Source: an uncultured Gemmatimonadales bacterium (GTDB taxonomy: Bacteria > Gemmatimonadota > Gemmatimonadetes > Longimicrobiales > Gaopeijiaceae). From it: a stretch of 64,000 bases of DNA. Of this stretch, positions 1,056 to 61,340 are shown piece after piece. The translations under genes and the position numbers were made by a program. A model generated the notes under the pieces. The model was not told the DNA's origin, ran no database searches, and saw only the letters and a program-made list of their open reading frames with translations. Positions within the stretch are counted from its first letter, which is position 1. Each line of letters starts with the position of its first letter. The stretch covers positions 128,001 through 192,000 of the forward strand of contig CAWELD010000003.1 of the NCBI GenBank assembly GCA_963809895.1, given 5' to 3'.

Positions 1056-1619
1056 ATGGGCTGTCTCGCGCTCAACGCCTCGTTCGAACCGCTCACCCTG
1101 GTTCCGGTGAGACGGGCGGTCCGTCTCGTGCTCGATCGCAAGGCCGAGGTCCTCGAGGTGGACGACGCGCGCCTGTTCCGGTCGGAGCGGGAGTCGGTGC
1201 CCTGCCCCTCGGTCATCCGGCTGGTGCGCTTCGTGCACGTCCCCCGCCGTTTCCGGCGCCAGGTGACCAACACCTTCCTGTTCGCCCGCGACGACTACTG
1301 CTGCCAGTACTGTGGCCGCCACCGCAGCCAGTTGCGGGGGCGCCAGTTCCTCACGCGGGACCACATCCTTCCGGTGTCCCGCGGAGGCCAGAACACCTGG
1401 GCGAACGTCGTGACCGCATGCTCGCCCTGCAACAATCGCAAGGGTGGCCGCCTCCCGGAGGAAGCGGGCATGACCCTGCGCACCGTACCGGGCGAGCCCA
1501 ACTACGTCCACCTGGTGTGGGCCGTCCGTCGCGTGACGCCGATCCAGGCGAAGTGGGTCGGCATGTTCTACGGTGAGGATGCGGTGGAGGCCCTCCGCGC
1601 CGGTCGCGGCCACCTCTGA
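1056..1619 (+). CDS. HNH endonuclease (McrA-like HNH family)
   Basis: LALNASFEP N-terminus, RDDYCCQYCG, DHILPVSRGG, TWANVVTACSPCNNRKG. Confidence 0.93.
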   Translation: MGCLALNASFEPLTLVPVRRAVRLVLDRKAEVLEVDDARLFRSERESVPCPSVIRLVRFVHVPRRFRRQVTNTFLFARDDYCCQYCGRHRSQLRGRQFLTRDHILPVSRGGQNTWANVVTACSPCNNRKGGRLPEEAGMTLRTVPGEPNYVHLVWAVRRVTPIQAKWVGMFYGEDAVEALRAGRGHL

Positions 1620-26413: not shown

Positions 26414-26941
26414 CTACTCCTCGTCGGCGAAGCGGATCTCGTTCTGCCTCACGCGGTCGTGGAACCGCTCCCGATCCAGCTCCCGGGGGCGGCCGGAGGG
26501 GTCGAAGGGCTCCTTGAAGTCGAAGGCGAAGGGCGACGGTCCCCGCTCGTGGAGGGTCTGGATCCGCCGGCACGCCTCCCCCGGTGTCGGCACGTGCTCG
26601 TCGTCGACCCACCAGGCGGCGTAGCTGGGCCAATCACCCTCCTGTGCCCACTGGCGGCGCTTCTTGAAGGCCTCCATGTGGGCTCCGCGGTAGGCGAAGG
26701 CGCACACCGACTCCAGGTCGGTCCAGAGCGAGAGCGTCGTCTGCGCGAGGCGCTTGTCCCACCCCGCGAAGAACTCCGGCCACGCCCGGGGGCCCCACGA
26801 CCCGTCGTCGGTCGCGAGGAAGCCCGCGGAGCCGCCCGCCCGCGCGAACACCTTCTCCACCCGCTCGAAGAACCCCTGCACCCGGGGATCGCCCTCGGGC
26901 TCGTGCAGGACGCCGAATGTGTAAAAAGCCAGACGTGGAAT
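26414..26941 (-). CDS. DUF3291-family protein (probable ATT start)
   Basis: TLSLWTDLES..FAY.G.H.EA...R.W and AAWWV...P...GPSPFAFDF motifs; frame extends to ATT 26941 after GGAGGT. Confidence 0.85.
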   Translation of the reverse strand: MPRLAFYTFGVLHEPEGDPRVQGFFERVEKVFARAGGSAGFLATDDGSWGPRAWPEFFAGWDKRLAQTTLSLWTDLESVCAFAYRGAHMEAFKKRRQWAQEGDWPSYAAWWVDDEHVPTPGEACRRIQTLHERGPSPFAFDFKEPFDPSGRPRELDRERFHDRVRQNEIRFADEE

Positions 26942-27174: not shown

Positions 27175-29895
27175 ATGAGCGACGGCAGCAGGTGGCGCAG
27201 GCACCGGCGACCGCTGGTCCGGTTGGGGCATGGCCTCGCGCTGGGGGCCGTGGCCGCGGTGCTGCTCCTGGCCGTGCGTGACAGCGAGCCGCTACGCCTC
27301 CTGGAGGCTCGCACCTTCGATGTCAGGGCCCGCTGGGCGGCCGAGCCTGCACGGGCAGACACGGGAATCGTGTTCGTGGACATCGATCCGGCCAGCCTCC
27401 AGGCCTACCGTGAGAGCCTGGGCCGGTGGCCGTGGCCGCGCGATGCCCACGCGGCCATCGTCCAGTACCTGTCGGCCGCCGGGGCCCGCCTGATCGTGTT
27501 CGACGTCATGTTTCCCGAGGCCGACGTCGGGGATCCCGAGGCGGACACGATCTTCGCCGAGGCGTTGAGCGCCAGCGGACGCGTGATCCTCCCCCTTCTC
27601 TTCGGCCGTGCGCAGACCGCGGAGCGAGGCGCCGGGGACACCGGGGTCGGCGCCTTCCAGAGCATGGAGGCTCCGCATCCGCTGTTCCGGAGCGAGGCCC
27701 TGGACCTGGGGAGCGTGAACCTCAACGCCGATCCGGACGGGGTGGTCCGCTCGGATCGGCTCGTCTACGCCTACGACGGGCGCCTCTATCCGTCGCTGGC
27801 CCTGGCCGCGGCCCGGCAGCTCGCTCCGGAGCGTTTCGGGGGCACGCCGAACGTGCAGTCCGGAGAGGTCCGCCTCGCCGGTGAGCGCGTGCCGGTGACG
27901 GAGGGTCGCATGGTGTTGCGCTGGCGGGGGCCCTATCTGGAGGGGGGGACCTCCACCTACCCGATCTACCCGGCCTTCCGCATCCTGAACAGCGCCGCGC
28001 AGGTGCGGGTCGGGGCCCCGCCCGACGTGCCCATGGCGGCGCTGCGCGGCAAGGTCGTGTTCGTGGGCGTGACCGCGGCGGGCACCGAGGAGTTCGATGC
28101 CCGGCCCAACCCGATGCGGGCCTTCGACCCGGGGGTGCTCGTGCACGCCACCGCCCTGGACGACCTCCTGCAGGGGGACTGGATCGAGCGCGCGCCGTGG
28201 TGGGCCGACGGTGTCACCGTGGCCGCTGCCGCCCTCGGGGTGGGTGGGCTGACTGCGCTGGGCACTCCCTGGCTGGCGGCGGCGGCCTCCGTGGTCGTCC
28301 TCACGCTGGTGGCGGCGGGGGCGTTCGTGGCCTTCGCCGGCGGTTGGTGGGTCGGGTTGGCCGCGCCGCTGGTGGCGGGGGGCCTGACGCTGCTGGCCGG
28401 CCTGACCGTGAGCTGGGCCACGGAGGGCCGGGAAAAGCGGCGCGTACGAGACCTCTTCAGCCGGTACGTGAGCCCCGAGTACGTGCGCCGCTTGACGGAC
28501 GATGTGGAGAATCTGCGTTTGGGAGGACAGAGACGGGAGCTCACGCTCCTGTTCAGCGACATCCGGGGCTTCACGAGCCTGTCGGAGCGGCTCCCGGCCG
28601 AAGAGGTCATCGGCGTGCTGAACGAATACCTGGACCGGATGACGGCCGTGGTGTTCGAGCACGGCGGGACGCTGGACAAGTTCATCGGAGATGCCGTGAT
28701 GGCGTTCTGGGGCGCGCCGGTACCCGAGCCGCGCCAGGCCACGCGCGCCGTGGAGGCTGCCCTGCACATGCTCGAGGAGACGGCGACGCTGAACCGCCAG
28801 TGGCGGGAGCGCGGCGTGCCGGTGGAGTTGGAGATCGGCATAGGCGTGCACACCGGCGAGGCCGTGGTGGGCAACGTGGGCTCGTTGGCCCGCAAGCTCG
28901 ACTACACCGCCATCGGCGACGCCGTGAACCTGGCCAGCCGTCTGGAGTCCCTGAACAAGGAGCTGGGCACCCACGTGATCGTGAGCGAATCCACACGCAT
29001 CGCCGTCGAGGGCGACTACGACTTCCGTGCCCTCGACGAGGTGCGGGTGCGGGGGAAGGAGAAGCCCGTGAAGATCTACGAGCTGCGAGGCCCGGGGCAG
29101 GGCTCGCCGACGCGTCGGCCGTCGGCCCCGTCGACGTTGGCTCTGGTGGCGACGCTGCTCGGCCTCCTGGCTCCGACGCCGGGGGCGGCCCAACAGAAAG
29201 CCCGTTGGACCGACCTCTACTACCGGCCCGGCGCCTGGAACGGCGCCCAGCTCACGGGTCACCGGACGACGAACCGCGACACCGACACCCTGGCCCTGGC
29301 GGCACTGGTCGAGGTCTACTCGGCGCCGCCGCGCTGGCGGGCCGAGGTGGTCCGGGTGCGGAGCGCCACCACGCTGGACAGCGAGCCGCTGGTGCTGGTG
29401 ATGGACGGCTCCCAGGTCCAGGTGCTCACGGGCATGGGGTCCACGCCGCTGTCGGAGCACGCGGCGGGTGACGACTCGCTGGTCGCGGCGGTGGTGTCCC
29501 AGATCCGGTCCAGCGGCGGACGCGTGGACACGACACCCGGCACCAGGCGACTCGTGGACGCCGCCCCGTCCGGCGTCGTGCAGTGGGTCGTTCTGCGGCG
29601 GCCGGCGGCCCGGGCGGAGTTCGCCGACGCCCTTCTGGACACCGGCACGGGGGGGCGTCTGGGGCGGCGGCTGGCCCAGCTCGGCGTCCAGGCCGCCGGC
29701 GGGGAGCGCCGCTCGGAGGTGGTCGCCAGCGCCGGTGCCCGGGGCGTGGTCACCGTGCGCACCGTGGACGGCGAGATCACGGTCACACCCGACACCGCCG
29801 CCATCCGTGGGCTGGAGCAGGTGCGGATCGGCATCCTCGACCTCGAGCGCTTCTGGCGAGAGGGTGGGTTGCTGGGCAACGGAGGTGGACGGTGA
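27175..29895 (+). CDS. CHASE2-domain class III adenylate cyclase with C-terminal exported-domain fusion
   Basis: CHASE2 (WPWPR, FDVMFPE, DPDGVVR, PGVLVHA), TM helices, cyclase FSDIRGFT / DKFIGDA / YTAIGDAVNLASRLE, then a hydrophobic stretch and about 235 extra aa. Confidence 0.93.
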   Translation: MSDGSRWRRHRRPLVRLGHGLALGAVAAVLLLAVRDSEPLRLLEARTFDVRARWAAEPARADTGIVFVDIDPASLQAYRESLGRWPWPRDAHAAIVQYLSAAGARLIVFDVMFPEADVGDPEADTIFAEALSASGRVILPLLFGRAQTAERGAGDTGVGAFQSMEAPHPLFRSEALDLGSVNLNADPDGVVRSDRLVYAYDGRLYPSLALAAARQLAPERFGGTPNVQSGEVRLAGERVPVTEGRMVLRWRGPYLEGGTSTYPIYPAFRILNSAAQVRVGAPPDVPMAALRGKVVFVGVTAAGTEEFDARPNPMRAFDPGVLVHATALDDLLQGDWIERAPWWADGVTVAAAALGVGGLTALGTPWLAAAASVVVLTLVAAGAFVAFAGGWWVGLAAPLVAGGLTLLAGLTVSWATEGREKRRVRDLFSRYVSPEYVRRLTDDVENLRLGGQRRELTLLFSDIRGFTSLSERLPAEEVIGVLNEYLDRMTAVVFEHGGTLDKFIGDAVMAFWGAPVPEPRQATRAVEAALHMLEETATLNRQWRERGVPVELEIGIGVHTGEAVVGNVGSLARKLDYTAIGDAVNLASRLESLNKELGTHVIVSESTRIAVEGDYDFRALDEVRVRGKEKPVKIYELRGPGQGSPTRRPSAPSTLALVATLLGLLAPTPGAAQQKARWTDLYYRPGAWNGAQLTGHRTTNRDTDTLALAALVEVYSAPPRWRAEVVRVRSATTLDSEPLVLVMDGSQVQVLTGMGSTPLSEHAAGDDSLVAAVVSQIRSSGGRVDTTPGTRRLVDAAPSGVVQWVVLRRPAARAEFADALLDTGTGGRLGRRLAQLGVQAAGGERRSEVVASAGARGVVTVRTVDGEITVTPDTAAIRGLEQVRIGILDLERFWREGGLLGNGGGR

Positions 29896-30746
29896 GCGCG
29901 CGGTCCAGGGTCGGGTGCGGTCGAGGGGTCGCCCTGCTGGTTCTGACGCTGGCGCCTGCGGTGGTGACGGCTTGCACGGCCGCCGTACCCGGAAACCTGC
30001 AGGGGCTGGCGCGTATCGGACGATCCGCTCTGCCCATCGGCCCCGAGAAGGAGCAGGAGATCGGCTTCGGTATCGCCGCGACGGTGGCGGGCCGCTACGC
30101 CCTCGTCCAGGACGCGGCGCTCACCCGTTACGTGAACCTGGTCGGGCAGACCGTGGCTTCGCAGTCCACCCGTCAGGAGGAGGTGGCGTTCCACTTCGGC
30201 GTGCTGGACACCGACGAGGTGAACGCGTTCGCGGCGCCCGGGGGCTACATCCTGGTGACTCGCGGGGCGCTCGCCCGCATGACCTCCGAGGCGGAGCTCG
30301 CCGGCGTCCTGGCCCACGAGGTCGCCCACGTCGACGAGCGCCACGTGCTCGACGACATCCGCCGTTCCTCGGTGGCGGCCGAGGTTCAGGACGAGGCGGC
30401 TCTGTCGGGGCCGATCCTGGACCGGCTGGGAGCGCTGGGCACCACCATGCTCTTCACCGGCCTGAGCCGCGAGGACGAGATGGAGGCCGACTCCATCGGC
30501 ATGCTGTACGCGGCAGCCAGCGGGTACAGCCCCGACGGTCTGGTCCGGTTCCTCGAGCGGTTGGGTCCGGCCGGCGACACTGGAAGCACGCTCCGTGCCT
30601 GGGCGGCCACCCATCCCTCCGAGGCCGAGCGCGTCGCCGCGTTGACGCGTCAGATGGCCGCGGAGGACCTCGACGCTCGTTCGGGCCAGGTGCTGGCTGA
30701 GCGCTTCCGGGCGGCCATCGCCGAGGCGGGATCCCCCGTGCCATGA
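29892..30746 (+). CDS. M48-family metallopeptidase lipoprotein
   Basis: GTGA overlap, lipobox VTA-C, NAFAAPGG, HEVAH, EMEAD, THP. Confidence 0.93.
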   Translation: MSARSRVGCGRGVALLVLTLAPAVVTACTAAVPGNLQGLARIGRSALPIGPEKEQEIGFGIAATVAGRYALVQDAALTRYVNLVGQTVASQSTRQEEVAFHFGVLDTDEVNAFAAPGGYILVTRGALARMTSEAELAGVLAHEVAHVDERHVLDDIRRSSVAAEVQDEAALSGPILDRLGALGTTMLFTGLSREDEMEADSIGMLYAAASGYSPDGLVRFLERLGPAGDTGSTLRAWAATHPSEAERVAALTRQMAAEDLDARSGQVLAERFRAAIAEAGSPVP

Positions 30747-32599
30747 TCCGTGTCGAGCGAGCCCCGGACGACGCCCGGGCCTTTCTGGCGTCCACGGAGC
30801 TGTTCGCCGAGGTGGAGGATCAGGCTGTGCGTGACGTGGCGGATCGCCTCGAGTGGGTTCTGGTGCGGGGTGGGGAGGACGTGTGCCGGCAGGGCGAGGC
30901 GGGGTCGAGCCTCTTTCTCGTGGCCACCGGCAAGCTGCGCGTGATCATCGCCGGGGCCGATGGGCGGGAGCGTGTCGTCCGCGAGCTGGGGCGAGGCGAG
31001 AACGTGGGCGAGATGTCCCTGCTCACCGGGGCGCCCCGCTCCGCCACCGTCACCGCCATTCGGGACTCGGTGCTGGCACGCCTGACCCGGGAGGGCTTCA
31101 ACGCTCTGGTCGCCGCCCACCCCGAGGCCATGCTGCCGCTCACGCGCATGCTCGCGCGCTGGCTGGACCGCGCCAACCAGCGGGAGCAACGGCCCGACGT
31201 GCCCACCACCGTCACGGTACGTGCCGGCTCCAGCGACGTGCCTCTCCGTTGGGTCGCCGAGACCCTGGCCACCGCGCTGGGCGAGATCGGTCCCACCCTC
31301 CACCTGCACGCGGACCGGGTCGACGGGGCCCTGTTCGCCGGTGCGGCCGACGAGGACGAGACGGGCGAAGGCTACGGCCGCGTCACCCGCTGGCTTTCGG
31401 AGCAGGAGGCCAGTCATCGCTTCGTGCTGTACGAGTCCGATGTCGGCAGGCCCGCGTGGGCTCGTCGCTGCGTGCGCCAGGCGGACCGGCTGCTCACGGT
31501 GGTCCGGAGCGAAGGACAACCGCGCGAGATCGACCGTGGCACGGCGGATCGCGGTTCCACCGCGCAGTCCCACCTCGTGCTGCTGCATCGGGCCGGCACC
31601 GGGCTTCCGCAGGCGACCAGGCGGTGGCGTCCCGACCGCTACGACGCACATCACCACCTGCGGGAGGACAGGCCGGCCCACTTCGGCCGCCTCGCTCGTC
31701 ATCTCGCCGGACAGGCCGTGGGGCTGGTGCTGGGCGGCGGTGGAGCCCGGGGCTTCGCCCATCTGGGCGTGGTGCGCGCCCTGATGGAATCCGGGGTGCC
31801 CATCGACCGCATCGGAGGCACGTCCATGGGGGCCATGATGGGTGCGCTGATCGCCATGGAGCGCAGCTACGCCGACCTGGTGTCCCTCAACGAAGGCATC
31901 TGGCCGAGGCTGGCGCCGAACCGCGACTTCACCATCCCCCTGATCTCCATCATGTCGGGCCGGCGCGGCATCCGGATCTGTGACGAGCTCTACGGGGACG
32001 TGGATATCGAAGATCTGTGGATCCCGTTCTTCTGTTGCTCGGCGAACCTGACGCGCTCGGAGCTGGTGGTGCACCGCTACGGCCGCCTCGCGTTCGGCGC
32101 CCGCGCCACGGCCTCGATCCCGGGCGCCGCGCCGCCGGTCGTCACCGACGACGGAGAGCTGCTGGTGGACGGCGGCGTGCTCAGCAACCTGCCGGCCGAC
32201 CTCATGCTCGAGCAGGGCGGGGGCCCGGTCATCGCCGTGGACGTGTCCCAGCAGCAGGACCTGTCGCTGGAGGCGTGGGACGGCGAGCTGCCGTCGCCCT
32301 GGCGCGCCCTGGCGCGGCACCTGTGGCCGTTCTCCCGCAGTCGCCCCTACCCGAACATCCTCCACATCCTCATGCGCACCACCACCCTGAGCAGCCTGCG
32401 GGTCGAGCAGCAGGTGCGCGAGCAGGTGGATCTCTACCTCCAGCCCCCGGTAGTCGCGTTCGACCTGTTCGGCTGGAATCAGATCGAGGCCATCGCCGAG
32501 GTGGGATACCGTTACGCGCTGGAACGGCTCCAGGGCTCGAGCCTCCTCACTGCGGCCGCGCCTTCGCCCATCGAGGGGCCCGTCGCCGCCGGATCCTGA
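30743..32599 (+). CDS. cNMP-binding patatin-like phospholipase (NTE/RssA type)
   Basis: ATGA overlap; cNMP domain GEMSLLTGAPRSATV; patatin GGGGARG, GTSMG, DGG. Confidence 0.95.
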   Translation: MIRVERAPDDARAFLASTELFAEVEDQAVRDVADRLEWVLVRGGEDVCRQGEAGSSLFLVATGKLRVIIAGADGRERVVRELGRGENVGEMSLLTGAPRSATVTAIRDSVLARLTREGFNALVAAHPEAMLPLTRMLARWLDRANQREQRPDVPTTVTVRAGSSDVPLRWVAETLATALGEIGPTLHLHADRVDGALFAGAADEDETGEGYGRVTRWLSEQEASHRFVLYESDVGRPAWARRCVRQADRLLTVVRSEGQPREIDRGTADRGSTAQSHLVLLHRAGTGLPQATRRWRPDRYDAHHHLREDRPAHFGRLARHLAGQAVGLVLGGGGARGFAHLGVVRALMESGVPIDRIGGTSMGAMMGALIAMERSYADLVSLNEGIWPRLAPNRDFTIPLISIMSGRRGIRICDELYGDVDIEDLWIPFFCCSANLTRSELVVHRYGRLAFGARATASIPGAAPPVVTDDGELLVDGGVLSNLPADLMLEQGGGPVIAVDVSQQQDLSLEAWDGELPSPWRALARHLWPFSRSRPYPNILHILMRTTTLSSLRVEQQVREQVDLYLQPPVVAFDLFGWNQIEAIAEVGYRYALERLQGSSLLTAAAPSPIEGPVAAGS

Positions 32600-32603
32600 C
32601 GCT

Positions 32604-35229
32604 TCACTCCCCCTCGGCCAGGATGGCTTCTCTCGGATCCAGGGCTGCCACCCGGCGCGCGGGCAGCCACGCCGAGGCCAGCGCCAGCAGCAAGGCTCCG
32701 GCGGTCACGGCGGCGAGTGTGGCCGGGTCTCGCGCATCCACCTGGTAGAGGAGCTCGTCGAGGTAGCCCGTGAGGAGGACGGCCAGGACCAGTCCCACGG
32801 CGGTCGCCCAGCGATGCGAGGCGCAGGCCGCGCCCCACCACCGAGCGCACGAGTCGGGGGCCGTCGGCACCCAGAGCCAGGCGGATCCCCATCTCGCGGC
32901 GGCGCACGGCCACGCCCCGCGCCAACAGGCCGTACAGCCCCAGAGCCGCCAGGAGCATGGAGGCGCCGCCGAAGAGCGCGGACAGGCGCGCCACCGCCGC
33001 GCGGGCAGCCACATGGGAGGATACCGCCGTTCGGGTGGTGCGCAGCTCGAAGGGCGGCACGCCTGGATCGACCTCCGCCAGCGCGGCGCGCACGGCGGGG
33101 GCCAGGCGTGCGGCGTCGCCGCCGGTGCGGAGCGCGAATCCCAGGAACGGCGATGCCTGGAGGGGCGCCCACAGCGTCGGCGTGTCCTGTTCCGGTCCGC
33201 GCAGCTTCATCTCCTCGGTCACGCCCACCACGGGGATGGGCGACCCCCATCCCTGGTATCCCCGCACGGCGATCATGCGCCCCACCGCGGCCTCGGTTCC
33301 GAACAACGTGCGTGCGGCGGAGGCCGAGATGACGGCGCCCTGGTCGCCCGTCTCTTCGCCTGGACCGCGACCCTGGATTACGCGTGTGCCCATGGCGCGA
33401 AGCCATCCCTCGGTGGCTTCGATGCGGATGAGAGCCAGGCCCTCGCCCTCTGCGTCGTCGGCCGCCCGGACCCGGCGTCCGGCGGACATGCCGGCAGCCA
33501 GTGGTAGCCGCGTGGACGCGCCCACGGCGGTGACTCCGGGTACCGCACCCAGCCTCGCCAGGACCCGGTTCAGGTAGGCCTCGGTGGTCGACGGATCGGG
33601 GTACTTCGCGTCCGGAAGCTGGACCTGGAAGGTGAGCACGCCGCCGGTGTCGAAGCCCAGGGGGACGTCGCGGAGCTTCCCGAGGCTCCGGGACAGGAGC
33701 AGCGCGCCGGCGGACAGCGTCAGCGCCAACGCCATCTGGCCCAGCACGAGCACGTCCTGGCCGCGCACGGCCCCGGGGCCGCGTCCCTGGCCCCGGGTGC
33801 TCGCCACGGAGGATGCCCGGCGGGCGGCCAGCGCCGGAAGCGCGCCCACCAGGATCCCGGCGGCGAGGGTCACCAGGAAGGCTCCGGCCAGCGCGGGCCC
33901 GCCCACGGTGGCCGCGGCCAGCCCGGGCGTCTCGGCCGGCAGCAGGGTTCGCAGCCAGTGGACGCCCCCGGCGGCGAGCAGCACGCCGAGGCCGCCCCCG
34001 CCGGCGGCCAGCAGCAGCGACTCCACCAGGAGCTGACGCAGGAGCTGCCCGCCGCTGGCGCCCAACGCCGCCCGCGTGCCGAGCTCCCGCTTCCGGTCCA
34101 CGACCCGGGCCAGGCCCATCCCGGCCAGGTTGAGGCACCCCAGCAGGAGGATCATGGCGCTGGCGCCCAGGAGCACCAGGAGGGGTGTGCGCACCCCACT
34201 GGAGAGCTCGCGCCGTAGCGGCGTCACCACCGTGGCGGGTGGCGGCCCGTACTCGGCGCCCACATCGGCGTACTGGGCCGCGGTGCGTTCGTCCAGATAG
34301 GTCCGCACGGGTGCGGCCGTCGCGCCCTGGCGGAGGCGCGCGACGACCGACGGACCGAAGGCGTTGCCGTAGAGCTCGGGCAGTTCCGGAAGGGGCAGCC
34401 AGGCTTCCGTGGCGTCGGGGAAGCCCACCTCCGGAGGCGCCACGCCGGCCACGCGGAAGTCCCGGCCGTTCAGACGGAGGCTCCGGCCGACGATGTCGGG
34501 ATCCCCGCCGGCGATCCGGAGCCACAGACCGTGGGACAGCACGATGGCGTCGGCCTGGTCGCTCTCGTCGGGCAGCCCGGCGCCCAGCGCCATGGACACG
34601 CCCAGGACCCGGAAGAAGTCCCCTGACACCTGCGCCACGCGGATGCGCGTCGCATCGACTCCGTCGGGCGTGAGATTCGCACCGCCGTCGGGCAGGTAGA
34701 GCGCGGCGGCCTCCACCTGTGGTACCTCGGCGAGCTCCGGATCCAGGGTGACACCGCGAGAGCTGAAGTAGGCCGGAGCCGGTGACAGGGCCAGCACGCG
34801 CTCCGGATGGGAGTAGGGCAGACTCCTCACCAGCACGGCCCAGGTCACCGAGCCGATGGCCACCACCGCGGCCAGTGTGAGAGCCATGGTGCCGACCACC
34901 ACTGCCCCGTGCAGCGGATGGCGGCGGACGTGTCGCAGGGCGAACCGTGCGTCGGCCACGAGCGATCCCATCGTCCACCCCTCCCGTTTCGAGTAGGTAC
35001 TGCCTTCTCGTCGCCCCGCACCGGGTCTCCAGGCCCGAGGCAGCGTCGCCAACGCGTCCAGCAGGACGCGCCGGCGGATGCGCGCGCGCTCCCTGTCGTC
35101 GTCGACGGACGCCAGCTCCTCACGTAGCGTCTCGGCGATACGCGCGGCGTGGCGGCGTCGGAAATCCCCCGGATAGAGCCGCAGGACCAGACGGAGCAGA
35201 CGGCCGCCATCCTCGACCCGACGGCTCAC
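32604..35229 (-). pseudogene. Duplicated MacB/FtsX (ADOP-type) permease with +1 frameshift near 32805 (possibly a sequencing error)
   Basis: Two MacB-PCD/FtsX halves; expected C-terminus (LPARRVAALDP) lies in another frame after LASLG. Confidence 0.85.
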
Positions 35230-35564
35230 GCACCCTCCGGCTTCATGCCCAGCCTCCGGGCCTCGTCCACCAGGGCCGACATCTGTGCCATCTCCTCCTG
35301 CAGCCGCGCCCGCCCCGGCCCGGTGAGACGGAAGTAGCGCCGCTGCTCCTCGTGCGGCTCCCCTTCGTCGGGTTCGTCGGTCTCCTCCACCAGGCCGTGG
35401 TCCTCGAGACGCCCCAACGCGTAGTACAGGGAGCTCGGCCCCAGGCGGAGCGCTCCCTCGGTGCGGGTCTCGATGGCCTGGAGCAACCCGTAGCCGTGAC
35501 TGGGAGCCGAGGCCAGCGTGAGGAGAATGTGGAGCTGGGACCGGGTGAGTCGAGGTTCGGCCAT
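35226..35564 (-). CDS. PadR-family transcriptional regulator
   Basis: SHGYGL, GPSSLYYALGRL, RRYFRLT; GTGA overlap with the permease. Confidence 0.93.
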   Translation of the reverse strand: MAEPRLTRSQLHILLTLASAPSHGYGLLQAIETRTEGALRLGPSSLYYALGRLEDHGLVEETDEPDEGEPHEEQRRYFRLTGPGRARLQEEMAQMSALVDEARRLGMKPEGA

Positions 35565-35614
35565 GGTCCCGTCCGTGGGCTGCGCATGGTTCGGCGCGTG
35601 GAGCGTCCAGGATT

Positions 35615-35639
35615 TGATATAACAAATATTGGAATATCA
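35615..35639. promoter_or_regulatory. AT-rich imperfect palindrome, candidate PadR operator
   Basis: TGATAT-aa-CAA-ata-TTG-ga-ATATCA directly upstream of padR in a high-GC background. Confidence 0.6.
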
Positions 35640-35671
35640 TCGCAAGGGGCCAGGGCGACCCATCCGTCGCC

Positions 35672-38419
35672 TCACACCTCGCCGGCCACCGCCTCGGCCG
35701 GATCGATGGCCACGGCGCGGCGGGCGGGCAGGAGCGCCGCCACCAGGGCGGTGGTGCTGAGCACCGCGATGGCCGCCGCGAACGACGTCGGATCCAGGGG
35801 GGTCACGCCGAAGAGGTACTCGCCCACGTAGCGGGTGAGGACCATGGCCAGCCCCGCACCCACGGCGACCCCTCCGACTACCGCCAGGGCCGCGCGCGCC
35901 ACCACGGCAGCGGCGACCCGGGCCGGACCTGCGCCCAGCGCCATGCGGATTCCGATTTCCCGTGTGCGGCGGCGCACGCCGAAGGTCACCATGGCGAAGA
36001 CGCCCACGGCGCACACCACCAGCGTGACGAGGCCGAGGAGGCCCAGGAGCAGCGCCCCGAACCGCTGTGGCATGAGCACGCGGTCCATCTGGTCCGCCAC
36101 CAGCCTGGCGTCCTGGAGCGGCAGTCCGGGATCGAACTCCCGGAGCCGGTCCCGCAGCACGTTCAGCGCATCGCGGGCGTCGCCGGTGGCGCGGGCGACC
36201 AGGCTGACACGACTGGCGGCCAGCTGCGGGCTCTGGGTCAAGGACAGGTAGATGTAGGGAACGGCCTCGTCGGTCACACCGTGGACCTTGTGGTCCCGGA
36301 CGATCCCCACGACCTCGACGGGATCGAGGCCTCGCATCAGCACCAGGCGTCGTCCCAGCGCCCTACGGTCCGGCCAGAGGCGGTGGGCGGCGGCCTCGTT
36401 GATCACCGCGACCTCGGGTGCGTCGCGTGTGTCGGCGGGCCCGAACGTACGTCCTTCCAGGAACGGCACGCCCAGGGTTTCGAAGTACCGGGAGCTGACC
36501 ACGTTGATGGCGGTGGCCTGGCCGGCTTCGTCGTCCGGGGCGTCCTCGGCCAGCGGTCGCAGGCGGATGGCGGCGGGCGACAGGGGCACCTGCACGGCGA
36601 AGGCCGCCGAGGCCACGGCCGGCGAAGCCTCTACGCTCGCCAGGACGCGGCTCACCGCGTCGGGGACCTCGTCGTCCTGGTAGCCCTGACCACGGAACCC
36701 CATGGCCACGGCGGCCAGCCCCTCGGGCTCGAAGCCCAGGTCCGTATTGAGCGCCGACTCGAGGGTGCGCACGAAGAGGAGCGCTCCCACCACCAGGACC
36801 AGCGAGAGCCCGATCTGCCCGCCCACGAGGATGGACAACCCGCGGGCTCCGCCCGACGAGGTGCGTCCGCCACGGCGCAAGCGTTCTCCGACGTCCCGGC
36901 GGCTCTGGACCAGCGCCGGGATCAGCCCGAAGGCCACCGCGGACAGCGTGCTGAGCCCCAGGGCGACGCCCACCAGACGTCCGTCGAGGGAGAGGTCGAC
37001 GCGACTGAGGGGGATGCCCCCGGGGAGCGCGAAGCGCTGGAGGATGCGGGTCGCCAGTACCGCGAGACCGAGCCCCGCGGCGCCGCCGGCCGCCGCCAGC
37101 ACCAGGCTTTCGGAGAGGAGGTGACGGACCAGTCGGCCCCGGCGGGCGCCCAGAGCCTGGCGCACCCCCAGCTCCCGACTGCGGGTCCAGGCCCGGGCCG
37201 AGATCAGGTTGGCCGCGTTGAGACACGCCACCGCCAGCGTCATGAGGACCACGACGCCCAGGAGCCCGACGAAGCGGAGCAAGCCGTCGCGGCCGTCCAG
37301 GGCTGCCGCGGCGGCCAGGGGGCGCAGGTGCACGATCTCCGCCAGGTCGGGCAGCCCGCTGTCGTCACCCAGCTCCGCCACCAGCCCGTGCGCGGTCCGG
37401 TCGAGCACCCTCTCGGCAGAGGCCGGCTCGAGGTCGTCCGGCAGACGCGCCACCATGGAGATCCACGGAAAGGCCCGGGTCTCGAAGAGCCGCGGCACCG
37501 CGTAGAGCCCCTCGGCTGCCGCCTCCTGGATGCGAACCAGCGGCAGCCACAGCTCCGGGGACTCCTCCAGCGTCACCCCCCGGAAGCCCCGCGGTGCCAC
37601 CCCCACGACCTCGAAGGGCGTCCCGCTCACCGAGATCGTGCGCCCCACGACGCCCGGGTCTCCGCCGAAGACCCGCTGCCAGAGCGCGAAGCCCAGCACC
37701 GCGACCCGCGGCGCGTCCGGCGAGTCGTCGGCGGGCTGGAGCGTGCGACCCACGGCGGCGGACAGTCGCAGGACCTGGAAATAGTCGCCCGTGACCAGGC
37801 CCGCCGAGACGCGGTCGCTCACGTCGCCGGTCCGCAATCCCACGTCCAGCGCCACGAAGCCCGCCGGGCCTTCGAGGCCCGAGCCCGCAGTGCGATAGTC
37901 CTCGAGCGTCGGGTAGGCCGTGCCCTGGTCGGGTGACGCTTCGCTGGCGGCCTGAAAGACCCGCACGACCCGGGCCGCATCGGGCACGGGGATGGGATGG
38001 AGCAGCACGCCGTCCACCAGCGACACCACCGCCAGCGTGGCCCCGAGACCCACCGTCAGCGTGAGGATCACCGCTCCGGAGATGGCCGGACTCCGCCGGA
38101 TGGAGCGGGCGGCGTAGATCAGGTCCCTCACAACTCCCTCCATCATCGTCCCTCCCTCCCGTCTGATTCCCGTCGATGCCGATGCCACCCCGCGGTGCAT
38201 CGGGGTCCGGTCCCACCAGGCCGACGCCACGGCGGCGGCCGCCGCTCCGAGCTCCCGGGTCCAGAAGACCAGGGCCCGGCCTCTGGAAACGCGGCCCAGG
38301 GCGGCTCGCCTCCGTCGCGCGAGCTCGACGATCTCGGACCGGAATTCCCGTCGCGCCTCGCGAGGCAGCAGCGCCAGGAGCCAGCGCAGCCAGCGGAGCG
38401 GTCTCCCTTCAGCCGCCAT
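35672..38419 (-). CDS. Duplicated MacB/FtsX (ADOP-type) permease
   Basis: RDLIYAARSIRRSP, RELGVRQALGA, REIGIRMALGA, LPARRA..IDP. Confidence 0.93.
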   Translation of the reverse strand: MAAEGRPLRWLRWLLALLPREARREFRSEIVELARRRRAALGRVSRGRALVFWTRELGAAAAAVASAWWDRTPMHRGVASASTGIRREGGTMMEGVVRDLIYAARSIRRSPAISGAVILTLTVGLGATLAVVSLVDGVLLHPIPVPDAARVVRVFQAASEASPDQGTAYPTLEDYRTAGSGLEGPAGFVALDVGLRTGDVSDRVSAGLVTGDYFQVLRLSAAVGRTLQPADDSPDAPRVAVLGFALWQRVFGGDPGVVGRTISVSGTPFEVVGVAPRGFRGVTLEESPELWLPLVRIQEAAAEGLYAVPRLFETRAFPWISMVARLPDDLEPASAERVLDRTAHGLVAELGDDSGLPDLAEIVHLRPLAAAAALDGRDGLLRFVGLLGVVVLMTLAVACLNAANLISARAWTRSRELGVRQALGARRGRLVRHLLSESLVLAAAGGAAGLGLAVLATRILQRFALPGGIPLSRVDLSLDGRLVGVALGLSTLSAVAFGLIPALVQSRRDVGERLRRGGRTSSGGARGLSILVGGQIGLSLVLVVGALLFVRTLESALNTDLGFEPEGLAAVAMGFRGQGYQDDEVPDAVSRVLASVEASPAVASAAFAVQVPLSPAAIRLRPLAEDAPDDEAGQATAINVVSSRYFETLGVPFLEGRTFGPADTRDAPEVAVINEAAAHRLWPDRRALGRRLVLMRGLDPVEVVGIVRDHKVHGVTDEAVPYIYLSLTQSPQLAASRVSLVARATGDARDALNVLRDRLREFDPGLPLQDARLVADQMDRVLMPQRFGALLLGLLGLVTLVVCAVGVFAMVTFGVRRRTREIGIRMALGAGPARVAAAVVARAALAVVGGVAVGAGLAMVLTRYVGEYLFGVTPLDPTSFAAAIAVLSTTALVAALLPARRAVAIDPAEAVAGEV

Positions 38420-38768
38420 GAGCCGGCGCCTCACCCCCCAGCACGTCGCGGCGCCGCGCCTCGGCCACGAGTCCGGCCAGTCGTTCGCTCTCCAGGTGGA
38501 GCACCTCACGTCCCAGGGCGGTGAGGGCGTAGCTGCGCCCGCGGCGTCCCTCGCCGGCGTCGGCGGCCGGCTCCAGAAGGCCGTCTCGCTTCAGGCGTCG
38601 GATCGCGGTGTAGAGCGTTCCCGATTCCGGCTCCAGGCGGCCCTCCGTGCGGGCGGCGATGGTCTGGAGGATCGCGTAGCCGTGCAGCGGGTCACCGGTC
38701 AGCGCCAACAGGATCTGATAGGAGAGATCGGTGAGGGGCAGGAGGTGCCAGGGCGGGGTCGGCGGCAT
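38409..38768 (-). CDS. PadR-family transcriptional regulator
   Basis: LHGYAI, SGTLYTAIRRL, YALTALGR. Confidence 0.93.
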   Translation of the reverse strand: MPPTPPWHLLPLTDLSYQILLALTGDPLHGYAILQTIAARTEGRLEPESGTLYTAIRRLKRDGLLEPAADAGEGRRGRSYALTALGREVLHLESERLAGLVAEARRRDVLGGEAPAHGG

Positions 38769-38804
38769 GGGATGGCCTCGCACGGGTCTGGAGTCGTGGC
38801 GGGG

Positions 38805-38847
38805 TATACTAGGTGGATAATCCACATATGGAATAGCCACATATTAA
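38805..38847. promoter_or_regulatory. Candidate PadR operator/promoter
   Basis: Palindrome GTGGAT-A-ATCCAC (38813-38825) and direct repeat CCACATAT x2 in an AT-rich patch upstream of padR. Confidence 0.6.
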
Positions 38848-38876: not shown

Positions 38877-39668
38877 TCAGCCGCCCATGGGCAAGCGGCG
38901 CTGATCCTCGGGGGGATTGATCTCGGCCTGCTCGACCACCAATGAGGCCGTGTGCGTCCCGGACGCGAAGCTCTCCTCCAGGTACGGCACCAGGATCCCG
39001 TCCACCTCGCGGAAGTCTCCGTAGTCGGTGGCGAAGACCATGCTCATGCCGCCCGTGGACATCTCCGACTCGGTTCGGAGCACGTGGTGGCTGGCGCCCT
39101 CGATGAAGAAGCGCAGACGGAGGCCGTCCTTCAGGTCACCGGCGAGTACCGTGAGGTCGGGATCGCTCCGCTCCACCTCCAGGCGGTCCTCCATGGCGTC
39201 CAGGATCCAGGGGACCCAGGAGCGGGCCGCCTGGAGCTGCATGGCGGCGAGCATGGGGCCCGAGGCGGGGCTGAGCGACTGGGGCGTGGACCCGTTGTAG
39301 CCGTCGTCGCCGTCCACGATCCGGATCTCCACCCGCTGCGGGTAGTGGAGCAGGACCTTGAGGCTGTCGCCGCCCTCCACGATGCGGATGAAGCTGCCGT
39401 GGGCCTCGGCGGGATGGGTGACGATGGTGCCGTCCAGGCGGAGGGCTTCCACCCCGGCCAGGGCGTCGCGGCCGCCGTACGCGTCCATGACCTGGGCCAC
39501 GATGGCCGCAGCAGCGGCCGTGGCGGCGGTTCCACGGGCGTCGGCCGTTCCAGCAGCGTCGGCGGTGTCGGCATCGGCATCGCCCACCGGTGCGCACGCC
39601 GAGGGAACCAGCACGAGGACGGCCACGAGGAGGAAGGGCAGGGGAGTGGTCGCGGTCCGCACGGTCAT
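38877..39668 (-). CDS. Hypothetical lipoprotein (LolA-like fold possible)
   Basis: Lipobox PSA-C, AYGGRDAL, DYGDFREVDGILVP; ATGA overlap with the upstream peptidase stop. Confidence 0.8.
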   Translation of the reverse strand: MTVRTATTPLPFLLVAVLVLVPSACAPVGDADADTADAAGTADARGTAATAAAAAIVAQVMDAYGGRDALAGVEALRLDGTIVTHPAEAHGSFIRIVEGGDSLKVLLHYPQRVEIRIVDGDDGYNGSTPQSLSPASGPMLAAMQLQAARSWVPWILDAMEDRLEVERSDPDLTVLAGDLKDGLRLRFFIEGASHHVLRTESEMSTGGMSMVFATDYGDFREVDGILVPYLEESFASGTHTASLVVEQAEINPPEDQRRLPMGG

Positions 39669-41189
39669 CCTCCCGCCACCGATGCGATGAAGTCGTGGAT
39701 GTCGCCCGCGAGCTTCTCGAAGGAGGGCCGGTGCAGGTACATCATGTGGCCCGCCTCGTAATAGGTGGTCTCCACGCGGCTCATGTCGATCCCGTAGCGT
39801 CCGAAGATGTACTCGCCGTCGAAGAACGGGGTGGCGTAGTCGTAGTAGCCCGAGGCCAGCAGGACCCGGAGCGCCGGGTTGTAGCTCTGGGCCCACGCCA
39901 GATCCGCGCTCGTGTCCACGTACGACGGCTCGCCGTACCCGTTGGACGAGCGCCCGGTCCCACACCCACCCTCGCCCGACATCCGGGCCCGACACGTAGT
40001 AGGGCCGGTCCAGCGTCACGCCCAGCTCGTTGGCGAGATAGCCGTGGAAGTCCGTGCTGAAGGCCGCCGATACCGCGGCGCTGGCGGCGTCGAAGGCGGG
40101 GCGCTCGGCCACGTCGTCGACCTCGTTCGCCTCGTAGCGGCCGTCGAGGCGTCCGAGTGCAACGCCCTGGTCCCGGAGCAGCTCCTTCAGGAAGCGGCCC
40201 GCCTGCACCCGCAGGTCCGAGCGCAGCACGTAGTCCACGTCGAGCCCGGTGAAGGCCGCGTACTGGCGCGCTACGGCCTGCCTGGTGGCGTCGTCCAGCC
40301 GGCTTCCCTGGAAGAGCGCGGGCAGGTAGGTGTGCACGGCGAAGTCGCGCACCTCGTCGAGAAACGACTCCAGGGTCCGGCCGCTGTGGTCGACCTTGCC
40401 GTGGTACCAGGCCGTGGCGGCCATGGTGGGCAGGTAGGTGACGAAGGCGGTGAGATTGTCCGCCACCGGCGTGCTCCCCTGGTAGTTCAGCGCCTGGGAG
40501 ATGAGGATCACGCCGCTCACCTGGATCGGCTCGGCGCCATCGAGCAGCTCCGGCAGCAGCGCCGCCGCGCGCGTGGTACCGAAGCTCTCGCCGGCCAGGA
40601 AGACGGGCGAGGTCCAGCGGTCGTTCTTGCGGAGCCACTCGCGGATGAGCGACGCCACGCTGCGGGCGTCCTCCCGCAGCCCGTAGACGTCGTCGGGCGT
40701 GCCGTCTCCCACCAGGCGGCTGAAGCCCGTGCCCGCGGGGTCGATGAAGACCAGGTCCGTCAGGTCCAGCGGGCTCCGGGTGTTGTCCTCCATGGGGTAG
40801 GGGGGATTCCCGGCGGGCTCCGCGTCGCTGGGGACCACCACGCGCCGGGGGCCGAAGAGCCCCAGGTGCAGCCAGATGGAGGCCGAGCCCGGGCCACCGT
40901 TGAAGACGAAGGTCACCGGGCGCGTGGCCGGGTCCGACACGTCCGTCTTCAGGTAGGCCGTGGTGAACAGGTCGGCATAGGGCTCGCCCGAGTCCCGCCG
41001 CAGCCGGATGTCGCTCACCACGGCCCGGTAGCCCACGCGCTCCCCGTTGAACGTACCCATGTGCTCGGTCTCGAAGCGCACCGTGTCGGGCACGGGCAGG
41101 GTGTCGCGAGGGGCGCCGGCGCGTGCGGCCGTCGGCAGGCAGAGGAGGGCCACCATGGGCAGCAGGGTGAGGCGAGCGGTGGGTCGCAT
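39665..41189 (-). pseudogene. S10 serine carboxypeptidase with +1 frameshift near 39953 (possibly a sequencing error)
   Basis: FNGGPGS, DPAGTGFS, GESFG in frame 1; GYYDYATP and YEAGHMMY (catalytic Asp/His) in the shifted frame ending at 39665. Confidence 0.88.
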
Positions 41190-61230: not shown

Positions 61231-61244
61231 TCCTCCGTCTCGAA

Positions 61245-61314
61245 CCGGGCGGTCTTCGAGGGCCGCCCGTGCACCGAGCCCCCGGCAGCCGCGTCCGGCC
61301 GCCGGGGGCTCGGT
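61245..61314. terminator. Paired hairpins between convergent genes
   Basis: CGGGCGG...CCGCCCG and ACCGAGCCCCCGGC...GCCGGGGGCTCGGT stems. Confidence 0.65.
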
Positions 61315-61340
61315 CTTCCCGCCCGGGCTGGTGCGCCGGG

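What the first reader, a model, noticed from the sequence alone, without database searches (positions are those of the whole stretch)
27175..32599. Self-contained cAMP circuit: CHASE2 cyclase, M48 lipoprotein peptidase and cNMP-gated patatin phospholipase
Seen: three genes coupled by GTGA and ATGA overlaps. The cyclase has the Lys (DKFIGD) and Thr (YTAIGD) residues of class IIIb adenylate cyclases. The last gene joins an intact cNMP-binding domain to an intact patatin (GGGGARG, GTSMG, DGG). Established: cyclic-nucleotide-activated effectors underlie CBASS (CapV patatin) and Pycsar (class III cyclase plus cNMP-binding effector), but those cyclases are soluble. Inference: a periplasmic sensing or proteolysis event triggers cAMP and then membrane lipid hydrolysis, either as envelope-triggered defence or lipid remodelling.
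Basis: partly seen in the sequence, partly recalled or inferred. Interest (0 to 1): 0.8.

Follow-up and report, generated by a model that had tools for sequence, protein, structure and literature searches.

The report
Sensor cyclase operon with accessory phospholipase
Three overlapping genes encode a membrane enzyme predicted to make the signal cAMP (fused to an unnamed, likely exported partner), a lipid-anchored zinc protease and a lipid-cutting enzyme with a cAMP-type pocket; the first two form a widespread conserved unit, whereas the lipid enzyme is a rare add-on that likely serves as one of several swappable outputs rather than as phage defence.

Summary
The three genes, both overlaps and all motifs are real. 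X shares its tail with an SH3 protein.

Cyclase, X and M48 are the conserved core. In 100 related loci the cyclase lies upstream in 76 of 76 and M48 downstream in 85 of 85 loci with room.

The patatin is a bacterial NTE-family enzyme with at least 3,700 homologues. It occurs in 0 of those 100 loci, and 0 of 51 NTE loci carry the core. It is probably not unique to this genome: matching contig lengths (indirect, but checked with a control) tie the closest cyclase, M48 and patatin homologues together on one contig, and M48 and patatin on another. Other lineages put a cNMP-MscS channel into the operon.

Best reading: an envelope-sensing cAMP module with a subclade-specific lipid-remodelling output. 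Defence is unsupported, and the circuit is not self-contained. cAMP control of the patatin is untested.

The parts
27175..29895 (+). CHASE2 adenylate cyclase fused to domain X (906 aa, P0001)
   Evidence: full-length fused homologues (97 aligned)
27253..28236 (+). CHASE2 sensor domain (aa 27-354), after TM1 (aa 13-35) and before a three-TM stretch (aa 346-415); periplasmic location inferred
   Evidence: Pfam PF05226 E 7.6e-51; hydropathy
28534..29085 (+). class III cyclase domain with D462, D506, K502, T578, N585, R589
   Evidence: PF00211 E 6.1e-27; residues; residue roles recalled
29134..29190 (+). internal signal-peptide-like segment (aa 654-672) ending G-A-A|Q
   Evidence: hydrophobic linker in 96 of 97 fused homologues; A at -1 in 86 of 97, Q at +1 in 93 of 97; cleavage inferred
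29191..29892 (+). unnamed domain X (aa 673-906): beta-sheet N-part plus conserved tail with ASAGARGV; a separate gene in other lineages
   Evidence: no Pfam match; 54 clusters at 50% identity; tail matches SH3 protein P0169 at 97.5% probability; fused in 22 loci, separate in 53
29892..30746 (+). M48 zinc peptidase lipoprotein (284 aa, P0002), Cys28 lipobox, HEVAH
   Evidence: PF01435 E 6e-29; C28, H142, E143, H146 invariant in 114 of 114
30743..32599 (+). bacterial NTE-family patatin: cNMP-binding, NTE P-loop-like and patatin domains (618 aa, P0003); no TM segment
   Evidence: 3,700 homologues at E<=1e-50 among 7,994 scored; model pLDDT 88.7; hydropathy
30863..31117 (+). cNMP-binding domain with pocket G89-E90...R99-S100-A101
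31724..32206 (+). patatin domain, S361-D476 dyad
   Evidence: S361 and D476 invariant in 101 of 101

Best explanation
This is a conserved three-part module (CHASE2 cyclase, likely exported partner X, M48 lipoprotein protease) that likely turns an envelope cue into cAMP, and one narrow subclade has added an NTE-family patatin that likely acts as a cAMP-responsive enzyme for remodelling the cell's own membrane lipids. Shown: gene order, overlaps, intact catalytic and pocket residues, invariant linkage of cyclase, X and M48, and the rarity of the patatin. Inferred steps: (1) The fused protein threads out again after the cyclase domain, and signal peptidase likely releases X into the periplasm at about one copy per receptor. 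(2) The conserved tail of X, shared with an SH3-type protein, is likely the piece that the M48 protease binds or clips. The state of X would then set CHASE2 activity, and the swappable N-terminal domain (SH3 elsewhere, weakly LolA-like here) would supply the cue or anchor. (3) cAMP rises. (4) cAMP binds the patatin's pocket and raises its activity or its membrane association, so that (lyso)phospholipids are deacylated. The patatin is one optional output among several; a cNMP-MscS channel fills that role in other lineages and is encoded elsewhere in this genome.
For: Core linkage: cyclase upstream of X in 76 of 76 loci and M48 downstream in 85 of 85 loci with room, out of 100 loci (94 distinct at 97% identity). 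Fusion: 22 fused, 49 separate, 4 separate with an insert, 25 not scorable; the signal-like linker is kept in 96 of 97 fused proteins. The X tail matches an SH3 protein. Other cNMP proteins are recruited to the same core in 7 of 100 loci. Six lie between cyclase and X (MscS-cNMP by Pfam in L070-L072 and by tblastn in L269; only the cNMP end is seen in L073 and L270), and a cNMP-DUF1003 gene follows M48 in L253. Recurrence of the patatin, indirect: cyclase P0306 (61%), M48 P0301 (71%) and patatin P0299 (60%) each lie on a JGI contig of 28,702 nt; M48 P0178 (74%) and patatin P0004 (64%), the top hits of two searches, each lie on a Logan contig of 7,927 nt. Control: M48 and cyclase lists share 25 lengths against 0.5 by chance; close patatins and M48 share 2 against 0.15. 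These three M48s fall in one subclade (SH-aLRT 99, quick tree) that holds none of the 29 surveyed no-patatin loci in the tree; the 7 close patatins form one clade. Pocket residues are conserved. Of the 7 cNMP matches in this genome, only this patatin and the MscS-cNMP protein show the canonical G-E...P-R-S-A pocket. CHASE2 cyclases of S. meliloti respond to a protein signal (PMC13001267, passages).
Against: No activity was measured. The patatin is absent from 100 of 100 inspected core loci (67 have at least 600 nt after M48), and 0 of 51 NTE loci carry CHASE2, X or M48. Within the subclade, the contigs of 135,186 nt (P0307/P0304) and 12,466 nt (P0308/P0191) match no close patatin by length. 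A shared contig length shows a shared contig at best, not adjacency, and I could not read that DNA. No cyclase hit had a 7,927-nt contig. For human NTE, direct cAMP binding has not been shown (PMC6995513, passages). For PNPLA7, cNMP analogues changed location but left activity largely unchanged (PMC5704489, passages). One review reports that raised cAMP increases NTE level and activity in cells (PMC9025805, passages), which need not be direct. The MASE2-cyclases next to NTE genes in five Betaproteobacteria-type loci lack the catalytic Asn/Arg, so they are weak support. The LolA-like fold of X is below the tool's confidence range (best Z 7.4, rmsd 5.3, 131 aligned).
Confidence: 0.55

Rival explanations
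1. The patatin is a passenger. It landed behind the M48 gene once in an ancestor and has stayed by inertia; its activity is independent of this cyclase (constitutive, or set by the general cAMP pool).
For: 0 of 100 core loci and 0 of 51 NTE loci show the pairing. The gene after M48 is highly variable. Seven genomes hold both on separate contigs. Some subclade members appear to lack it. All linked cases may descend from one event. The genome has two other cyclases.
Against: The link appears to have lasted to about 60% identity in all three proteins. There is an ATGA overlap. The core repeatedly attracts cNMP-domain genes (7 of 100 loci). The pocket is conserved.
Confidence: 0.3
2. Envelope-triggered abortive defence, like CBASS/CapV or Pycsar: phage damage sensed in the periplasm triggers a cyclic nucleotide burst and lethal membrane hydrolysis.
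For: A cyclase plus a nucleotide-binding lipase resembles these systems. The module is patchy (4 of 314 genomes in the family, 0 of 19 others in the genus). PADLOC models for PycC, PycTIR and CBASS effectors match single domains.
Against: Those hits cover only the generic cyclase, cNMP or patatin stretch. The CBASS_lipase score is 15.2 against a cut-off of 200, and the DS-2 phospholipase score 19.3 against 400. Of 47 other window proteins scanned, the only PADLOC hits were two ABC ATPases. GC3 is typical of the window (0.885-0.909 against 0.881 +/- 0.023). The cyclase residues are adenine-type, whereas Pycsar uses cCMP/cUMP (PMC9117128, passages). CapV has no sensor domain and binds 3'3'-cGAMP (PMC12480259, passages). 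The core usually has no toxic effector beside it.
Confidence: 0.06
3. X is not released. The hydrophobic segment is an uncleaved anchor, the fusion is a neutral result of lost stop codons, and M48 is a quality-control protease for the receptor rather than a signal gate.
For: Separate X genes work in 53 of 75 scorable loci, so fusion is not required. The best NCBIfam match for the M48 is the quality-control protease BepA, far below cut-off (107.6 against 570).
Against: A small residue followed by Gln at the end of the linker is kept in most fused proteins. M48 follows X in 85 of 85 loci, tighter than a general quality-control role needs. The genome has two other M48 homologues.
Confidence: 0.09

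Closest known systems
Sinorhizobium meliloti CHASE2 cyclases CyaD1, CyaD2, CyaK with NsrA and Clr (PMC13001267, passages read)
   Same: CHASE2 plus class III cyclase architecture; cAMP output; response to a protein signal through an exported partner
   Different: Here the partners are domain X and an M48 lipoprotein, not an outer-membrane beta-barrel; X is fused behind the cyclase; the adjacent receptor is a phospholipase, not a CRP-type regulator
NTE / PNPLA6, PNPLA7 and bacterial NTE-family patatins (PMC6995513, PMC5704489, PMC9025805, passages read; M. tuberculosis Rv2565 architecture recalled)
   Same: cNMP-binding domain, NTE P-loop-like domain (PF24179) and patatin with a Ser-Asp dyad
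   Different: One cNMP domain instead of three, no transmembrane anchor, and encoded with a candidate cognate cyclase
CHASE2 cyclase - SH3 protein - M48 operons, with or without a cNMP-MscS channel
   Same: Cyclase, exported partner and M48 in one operon; the partner's tail motif is homologous; optional cNMP effector
   Different: The partner's N-terminal domain is not SH3; it is fused to the cyclase through a retained signal peptide; the effector is a patatin
CBASS CapV (PMC12480259) and Pycsar PycC/PycTIR (PMC9117128), passages read
   Same: Nucleotide second messenger plus a lipase or cNMP-domain effector in one operon
   Different: No CD-NTase; membrane receptor cyclase with adenine-type residues; patatin of the NTE lineage with a separate sensor domain; no defence island
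bCNG channels (PMC13591265, passages read)
   Same: The MscS-cNMP protein found inside the same module in another family, and elsewhere in this genome (54% identical)
   Different: Not part of this locus; the physiological role of bCNG channels is itself unknown according to that review

Membership tests
CHASE2 class III adenylate cyclase | CHASE2 domain between TM segments followed by a class III domain | tested here: met
   Pfam above cut-off for both; hydropathy
CHASE2 class III adenylate cyclase | Two metal Asp, adenine-selecting Lys plus Asp/Thr, catalytic Asn and Arg (roles recalled) | tested here: met
   D462, D506, K502, T578, N585, R589
CHASE2 class III adenylate cyclase | Makes cAMP | not testable with these tools
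   needs an enzyme assay or cyaA complementation
Bacterial NTE-family patatin | cNMP-binding + NTE_Ploop + patatin domain order | tested here: met
   all three above Pfam cut-off; same order in the 120 listed homologues
Bacterial NTE-family patatin | Gly-rich loop, GxSxG serine and DGG aspartate | tested here: met
Bacterial NTE-family patatin | (Lyso)phospholipase activity, and control by cyclic nucleotide | not testable with these tools
   pocket conserved, but binding is not shown for human NTE (PMC6995513)
M48 zinc peptidase lipoprotein | HExxH, downstream acidic ligand, lipobox Cys | tested here: met
   H142, E143, H146, D200, C28 invariant in 114 of 114; E198 in 94 of 114
CHASE2-SH3-M48 operon (scan notes) | Partner carries an SH3 domain | tested here: not met
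   no SH3 Pfam match in X or its full-length homologues
CHASE2-SH3-M48 operon (scan notes) | Partner's C-terminal TAGARG-helix tail | tested here: met
   profile match to SH3 protein P0169, 77 columns, 97.5%, E 8.7e-12; the gene context of P0169 was not read
LolA superfamily (domain X) | LolA-like unclosed beta-barrel fold | tested here: inconclusive
   best Z 7.4, rmsd 5.3, 131 aligned; Foldseek E 2.8e-3, TM 0.24
CBASS (CapV) | CD-NTase in the operon | tested here: not met
   none among the three genes or their neighbours
CBASS (CapV) | Single-domain CapV-type patatin | tested here: not met
   15.2 bits against cut-off 200; 16-17% identity in structural matches to AbCapV
Pycsar | Pyrimidine cyclase making cCMP or cUMP | tested here: inconclusive
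   residues are adenine-type and PycC models match only the generic cyclase stretch; product not assayed
Pycsar | cNMP-TIR or TM effector (recalled; PycTIR named in PMC9117128) | tested here: not met
   effector is a patatin; no TIR or TM segment
Anti-phage system in general | Located among defence genes | tested here: not met
   47 other window proteins scanned; only two ABC ATPase hits
Anti-phage system in general | Protects against phage | not testable with these tools
   needs a challenge experiment

The most novel reading that the evidence does not exclude
A protease-gated CHASE2 receptor is made as a polyprotein with its own periplasmic regulator, which signal peptidase cuts free and the M48 lipoprotein processes. 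The cAMP it makes directly switches on an NTE-family phospholipase. This would be the first cognate cyclase-NTE pair with a defined input, and direct proof that the cyclic-nucleotide domains of the NTE/PNPLA6 family are allosteric switches.
Probability: 0.25. Interest if true: 0.72.

Novelty: new variant of a known kind. Interest (0 to 1): 0.45.

Why it matters
Two open points meet here. First, how CHASE2 receptors receive their signal is poorly defined. A fusion that joins the receptor to its exported partner, and a tail motif kept across partners with different N-terminal domains, point to the piece to test. Second, papers on human NTE state that direct cAMP binding has not been shown (PMC6995513). 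A soluble bacterial member with one intact pocket and a neighbouring cyclase is a convenient test case. The limits: the patatin family is very common, so this question does not need this locus; the patatin is not part of the conserved system; and the core has been flagged many times by this scan.

Tried and rejected
Complex prediction (CHASE2, M48 and X as three chains, X scored): the tool's verdict was 'no answer'. The score was 0.82, but the control with CHASE2 replaced scored 0.86. It is not used as evidence either way.

ESM Atlas search for X gave no usable hit. Foldseek on the X model gave no match at E<=0.001, and VIA-align found none at Z>=8.

No RNA holder was listed among the 13 runs, so co-transcription is untested. 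A second look at whether a relative's contig in run X4 continues from M48 into a patatin gave no result, so that question stays open.

Promoter and terminator scan: 0 promoter-like sites and 2 terminator-like sites against 1.1 expected. Repeats were only short chance-like pairs.

Plasmids: 252 records with distant M48 matches, all under 60% identity, and 1 NTE record; their contexts were not read.

The genome-contig scan with exact P0003 peptides returned 15 distant loci and no close relative.

Three marginal X matches at E about 9e-4 (G116, G202, G280) were dropped. G574 has only a contig-edge M48 with no patatin among its ORFs; it was not counted in the 100 loci.

Three further contig-length matches (3,662, 5,260 and 5,458 nt) involve patatins outside the close clade and are within chance expectation, so I did not count them. 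Three close patatin clusters lie on contigs of 2.3-4.1 kb and are uninformative.

MASE2-cyclase plus NTE operons were first taken as independent support, then downgraded because those cyclases are degenerate.

Recent horizontal gain of the patatin alone: not seen in GC or GC3. A DNA search of 5 same-genus genomes found no match over the cassette beyond short M48 stretches.

The M48 tree is the quick version, as the careful search did not finish. The patatin tree is FastTree. No test_one_clade was run, so no donor or order of events is claimed.

Literature: 9 searches found no paper on a CHASE2-M48 operon or on cAMP control of a bacterial NTE patatin. The library lacks most subscription papers, and no supplements were opened. 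PMC10745434, PMC5131308 and PMC10865251 (passages) added nothing on this, apart from the patatin Ser-Asp dyad in the last.
Full report
Observation. The three ORFs and both 4-nt overlaps are as described. Gene 1 has CHASE2 (aa 27-354) and a class III cyclase domain (454-637). Gene 2 is an M48 peptidase. Gene 3 has cNMP-binding, NTE P-loop-like and patatin domains. All six cyclase positions that I recall as catalytic or adenine-selecting are intact. Contigs at about 99% identity in other public runs bridge both gene junctions. Names given to close homologues point to Longimicrobiales, Gemmatimonadota; this is an inference about the host.

After the cyclase domain come a hydrophobic segment (aa 654-672) and 234 residues with no Pfam match, here called X. 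In 97 fused homologues the linker stays hydrophobic in 96 and ends in Ala (86) followed by Gln (93). This looks like a retained signal peptide with a signal-peptidase site; cleavage is inferred. X is a small family of 54 clusters at 50% identity. Its C-terminal 77 residues match an SH3-domain protein at 97.5% probability. X is therefore likely the local counterpart of the SH3 partner in the CHASE2-SH3-M48 operons that this scan noted earlier. The model of X (pLDDT 71.6) resembles LolA-type sheets only weakly (best Z 7.4).

The conserved core. I collected 100 X loci, 28 from genomes and 72 from metagenomes, 94 distinct at 97% identity. A cyclase lies upstream in 76 of 76 loci with at least 700 nt of room, and M48 lies downstream in 85 of 85 with at least 450 nt. 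X is fused to the cyclase in 22 loci, separate in 49 and separated by an inserted gene in 4; 25 could not be scored. The module is patchy: its M48 was found in 4 of 314 genomes of the family, this one included, and in 0 of 19 other genomes of the genus.

The patatin is not part of the core. None of the 100 loci holds a patatin or NTE P-loop match; 67 have at least 600 nt after M48, and the next gene varies widely. In 401 phylum genomes, X was found in 10 others (3 marginal matches dropped) and NTE_Ploop in 15 others, with no overlap. In 351 order genomes, 44 others have a full-length NTE protein and 20 others have X. Seven have both, always on different contigs; in one of them (G445) the contig ends 62 nt after M48. 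Conversely, 0 of 51 NTE loci carry CHASE2, X or M48. The protein belongs to a very large family: 3,700 hits at E<=1e-50 among 7,994 scored.

It is probably not unique to this genome. The closest homologues lie in metagenome records whose DNA I could not read, so I used contig length as a tag. The top cyclase hit P0306 (61% identity), M48 P0301 (71%) and patatin P0299 (60%) are each on a JGI contig of 28,702 nt. The top M48 hit P0178 (74%) and the top patatin hit P0004 (64%) are each on a Logan contig of 7,927 nt. As a positive control, the M48 and cyclase lists (119 lengths each) share 25 lengths where 0.5 are expected by chance; the close patatins share 2 with M48 where 0.15 are expected. These M48s and the window's own sit in one subclade of 21 rows (support 99, quick tree) that contains none of the 29 no-patatin loci placed in the tree. 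The close patatins form their own clade, apart from the other NTE proteins of the order. So my direct survey sampled only outside the relevant subclade. Against this: contigs of 135,186 and 12,466 nt in the same subclade match no close patatin, a shared contig is not adjacency, and all cases may stem from one event.

Other outputs. In 7 of 100 core loci a cNMP-domain gene is present. Six lie between cyclase and X (an MscS-cNMP channel wherever enough is visible), and one cNMP-DUF1003 gene follows M48. This genome encodes an MscS-cNMP protein elsewhere, 54% identical to an inserted one. Of the 7 cNMP-domain matches here, only it and the patatin show the canonical pocket. There are 3 class III cyclases, and none of the three operon genes is a phosphodiesterase, so 'self-contained' overstates the case. 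From the other side, 5 NTE loci in Casimicrobiaceae or Burkholderiales follow a MASE2-cyclase-like gene (Pfam for 3 of them), but those cyclases lack the catalytic Asn and Arg. One further NTE locus lies about 1 kb from an intact HAMP-cyclase (L198). Earlier scan notes report STAND-cyclase plus NTE operons in Chloroflexota; I did not test them.

Is the patatin cAMP-gated? The pocket is under strong constraint: G89 in 101 of 101 homologues, E90 in 100, R99 in 95, and the three-domain model is confident (pLDDT 88.7, pTM 0.88). No solved structure among the listed matches covers the whole protein. The literature is cautious. Direct cAMP binding to human NTE is not shown (PMC6995513, passages). 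cNMP analogues moved PNPLA7 to lipid droplets through its third cNMP domain but left its activity largely unchanged (PMC5704489, passages). A review cites raised NTE level and activity when cAMP is raised in cells (PMC9025805, passages). Control of location rather than of catalytic rate is thus an open variant of my best reading.

Defence. PADLOC hits to PycC, PycTIR and CBASS effectors cover single generic domains. CapV and DS-2 phospholipase models score far below cut-off. Among 47 other window proteins, only two ABC ATPases matched; the neighbours are metabolic, transport and regulatory genes. GC3 is typical of the window. Pycsar signals are cCMP and cUMP (PMC9117128, passages), and CapV lacks a sensor domain and binds 3'3'-cGAMP (PMC12480259, passages). 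I give defence about 6%.

Mechanism. Shown: architecture, residues and linkage pattern. Inferred: X is exported and likely cut free; its conserved tail is likely handled by the M48 lipoprotein; this sets CHASE2 activity; cAMP then reaches the patatin and other receptors; the patatin deacylates membrane lipids. S. meliloti CHASE2 cyclases respond to a protein signal through an exported partner (PMC13001267, passages), which fits the logic but uses a different partner. Confidence in this reading is 0.55; the passenger reading gets 0.3.

Novelty. Each protein family is known. Nine paper searches found no description of the CHASE2-partner-M48 operon or of a cAMP-controlled bacterial NTE patatin; subscription papers and supplements were not seen and could bear on this. 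The scan has noted the core many times, including the same arrangement with an MscS-cNMP channel in Gemmatimonadota (e1-4430032). New here are the patatin output and the signal-peptide fusion. Verdict: new variant of a known kind, interest 0.45.

Noticed in passing
L105:5681-9669, L106, L107, L109, L110: In Casimicrobiaceae/Burkholderiales MAGs a MASE2-cyclase-like gene with degenerate catalytic residues (first Asp to Glu; Asn and Arg lost) directly precedes an NTE patatin; an EamA transporter follows (Pfam-confirmed in L105). Possibly a pseudo-cyclase partner.
   Followed up: partly
L070, L071, L072, L269 (G365, G239, G273 and a metagenome contig): An MscS-cNMP (bCNG-type) channel gene is inserted between the CHASE2 cyclase and X in family f9.
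   Followed up: partly
L098:3986-9225 (G342), similar in L099 (G293): Three tandem cNMP-domain enzymes: cNMP-aldehyde dehydrogenase, NTE patatin and NDH2-like oxidoreductase-cNMP, with no cyclase in the stretch read.
   Followed up: no
L047, L048, L049, L050, L051: A second CHASE2 cyclase type in the same order sits beside DUF4384 or caspase-DUF4384 proteins, a secreted protein of about 300 aa (weak DUF928 match in one), and in some cases GAF-HD and metallo-beta-lactamase genes: a different protease with the same sensor.
   Followed up: no
L044, L045 (G043, G045): A third type: CHASE2 cyclase next to a FecR-domain protein and a 696-aa exported protein with no Pfam match.
   Followed up: no
P0157, P0159, P0160, P0162, P0164, P0170: Proteins of 274-316 aa with signal-like N-termini and no Pfam match that share the X tail motif; gene context unknown.
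   Followed up: no
L278:337-1905 (G000 C3, about 1.24 Mb from the locus): Stand-alone MscS-cNMP channel with a canonical pocket in this genome.
   Followed up: partly
window 32512-38840: Two tandem PadR plus MacB/FtsX permease pairs on the - strand, converging on the patatin gene.
   Followed up: no
window 26414-26881: DUF3291 ORF upstream on the - strand; the Pfam match starts at model position 18, so the true start may lie further up.
   Followed up: no
window 1056-1619: Stand-alone HNH endonuclease gene after priA, with no PADLOC match at E<=1e-10.
   Followed up: no
window 38877-41189: A 770-aa ORF with a peptidase S10 N-part and an unrelated C-part. Other frames overlap it around 39665-39982, which suggests a frameshift or two genes read as one.
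   Followed up: no
window 59902-63560: Two long ORFs (442 and 739 aa) with no Pfam match at E<=1e-8.
   Followed up: no
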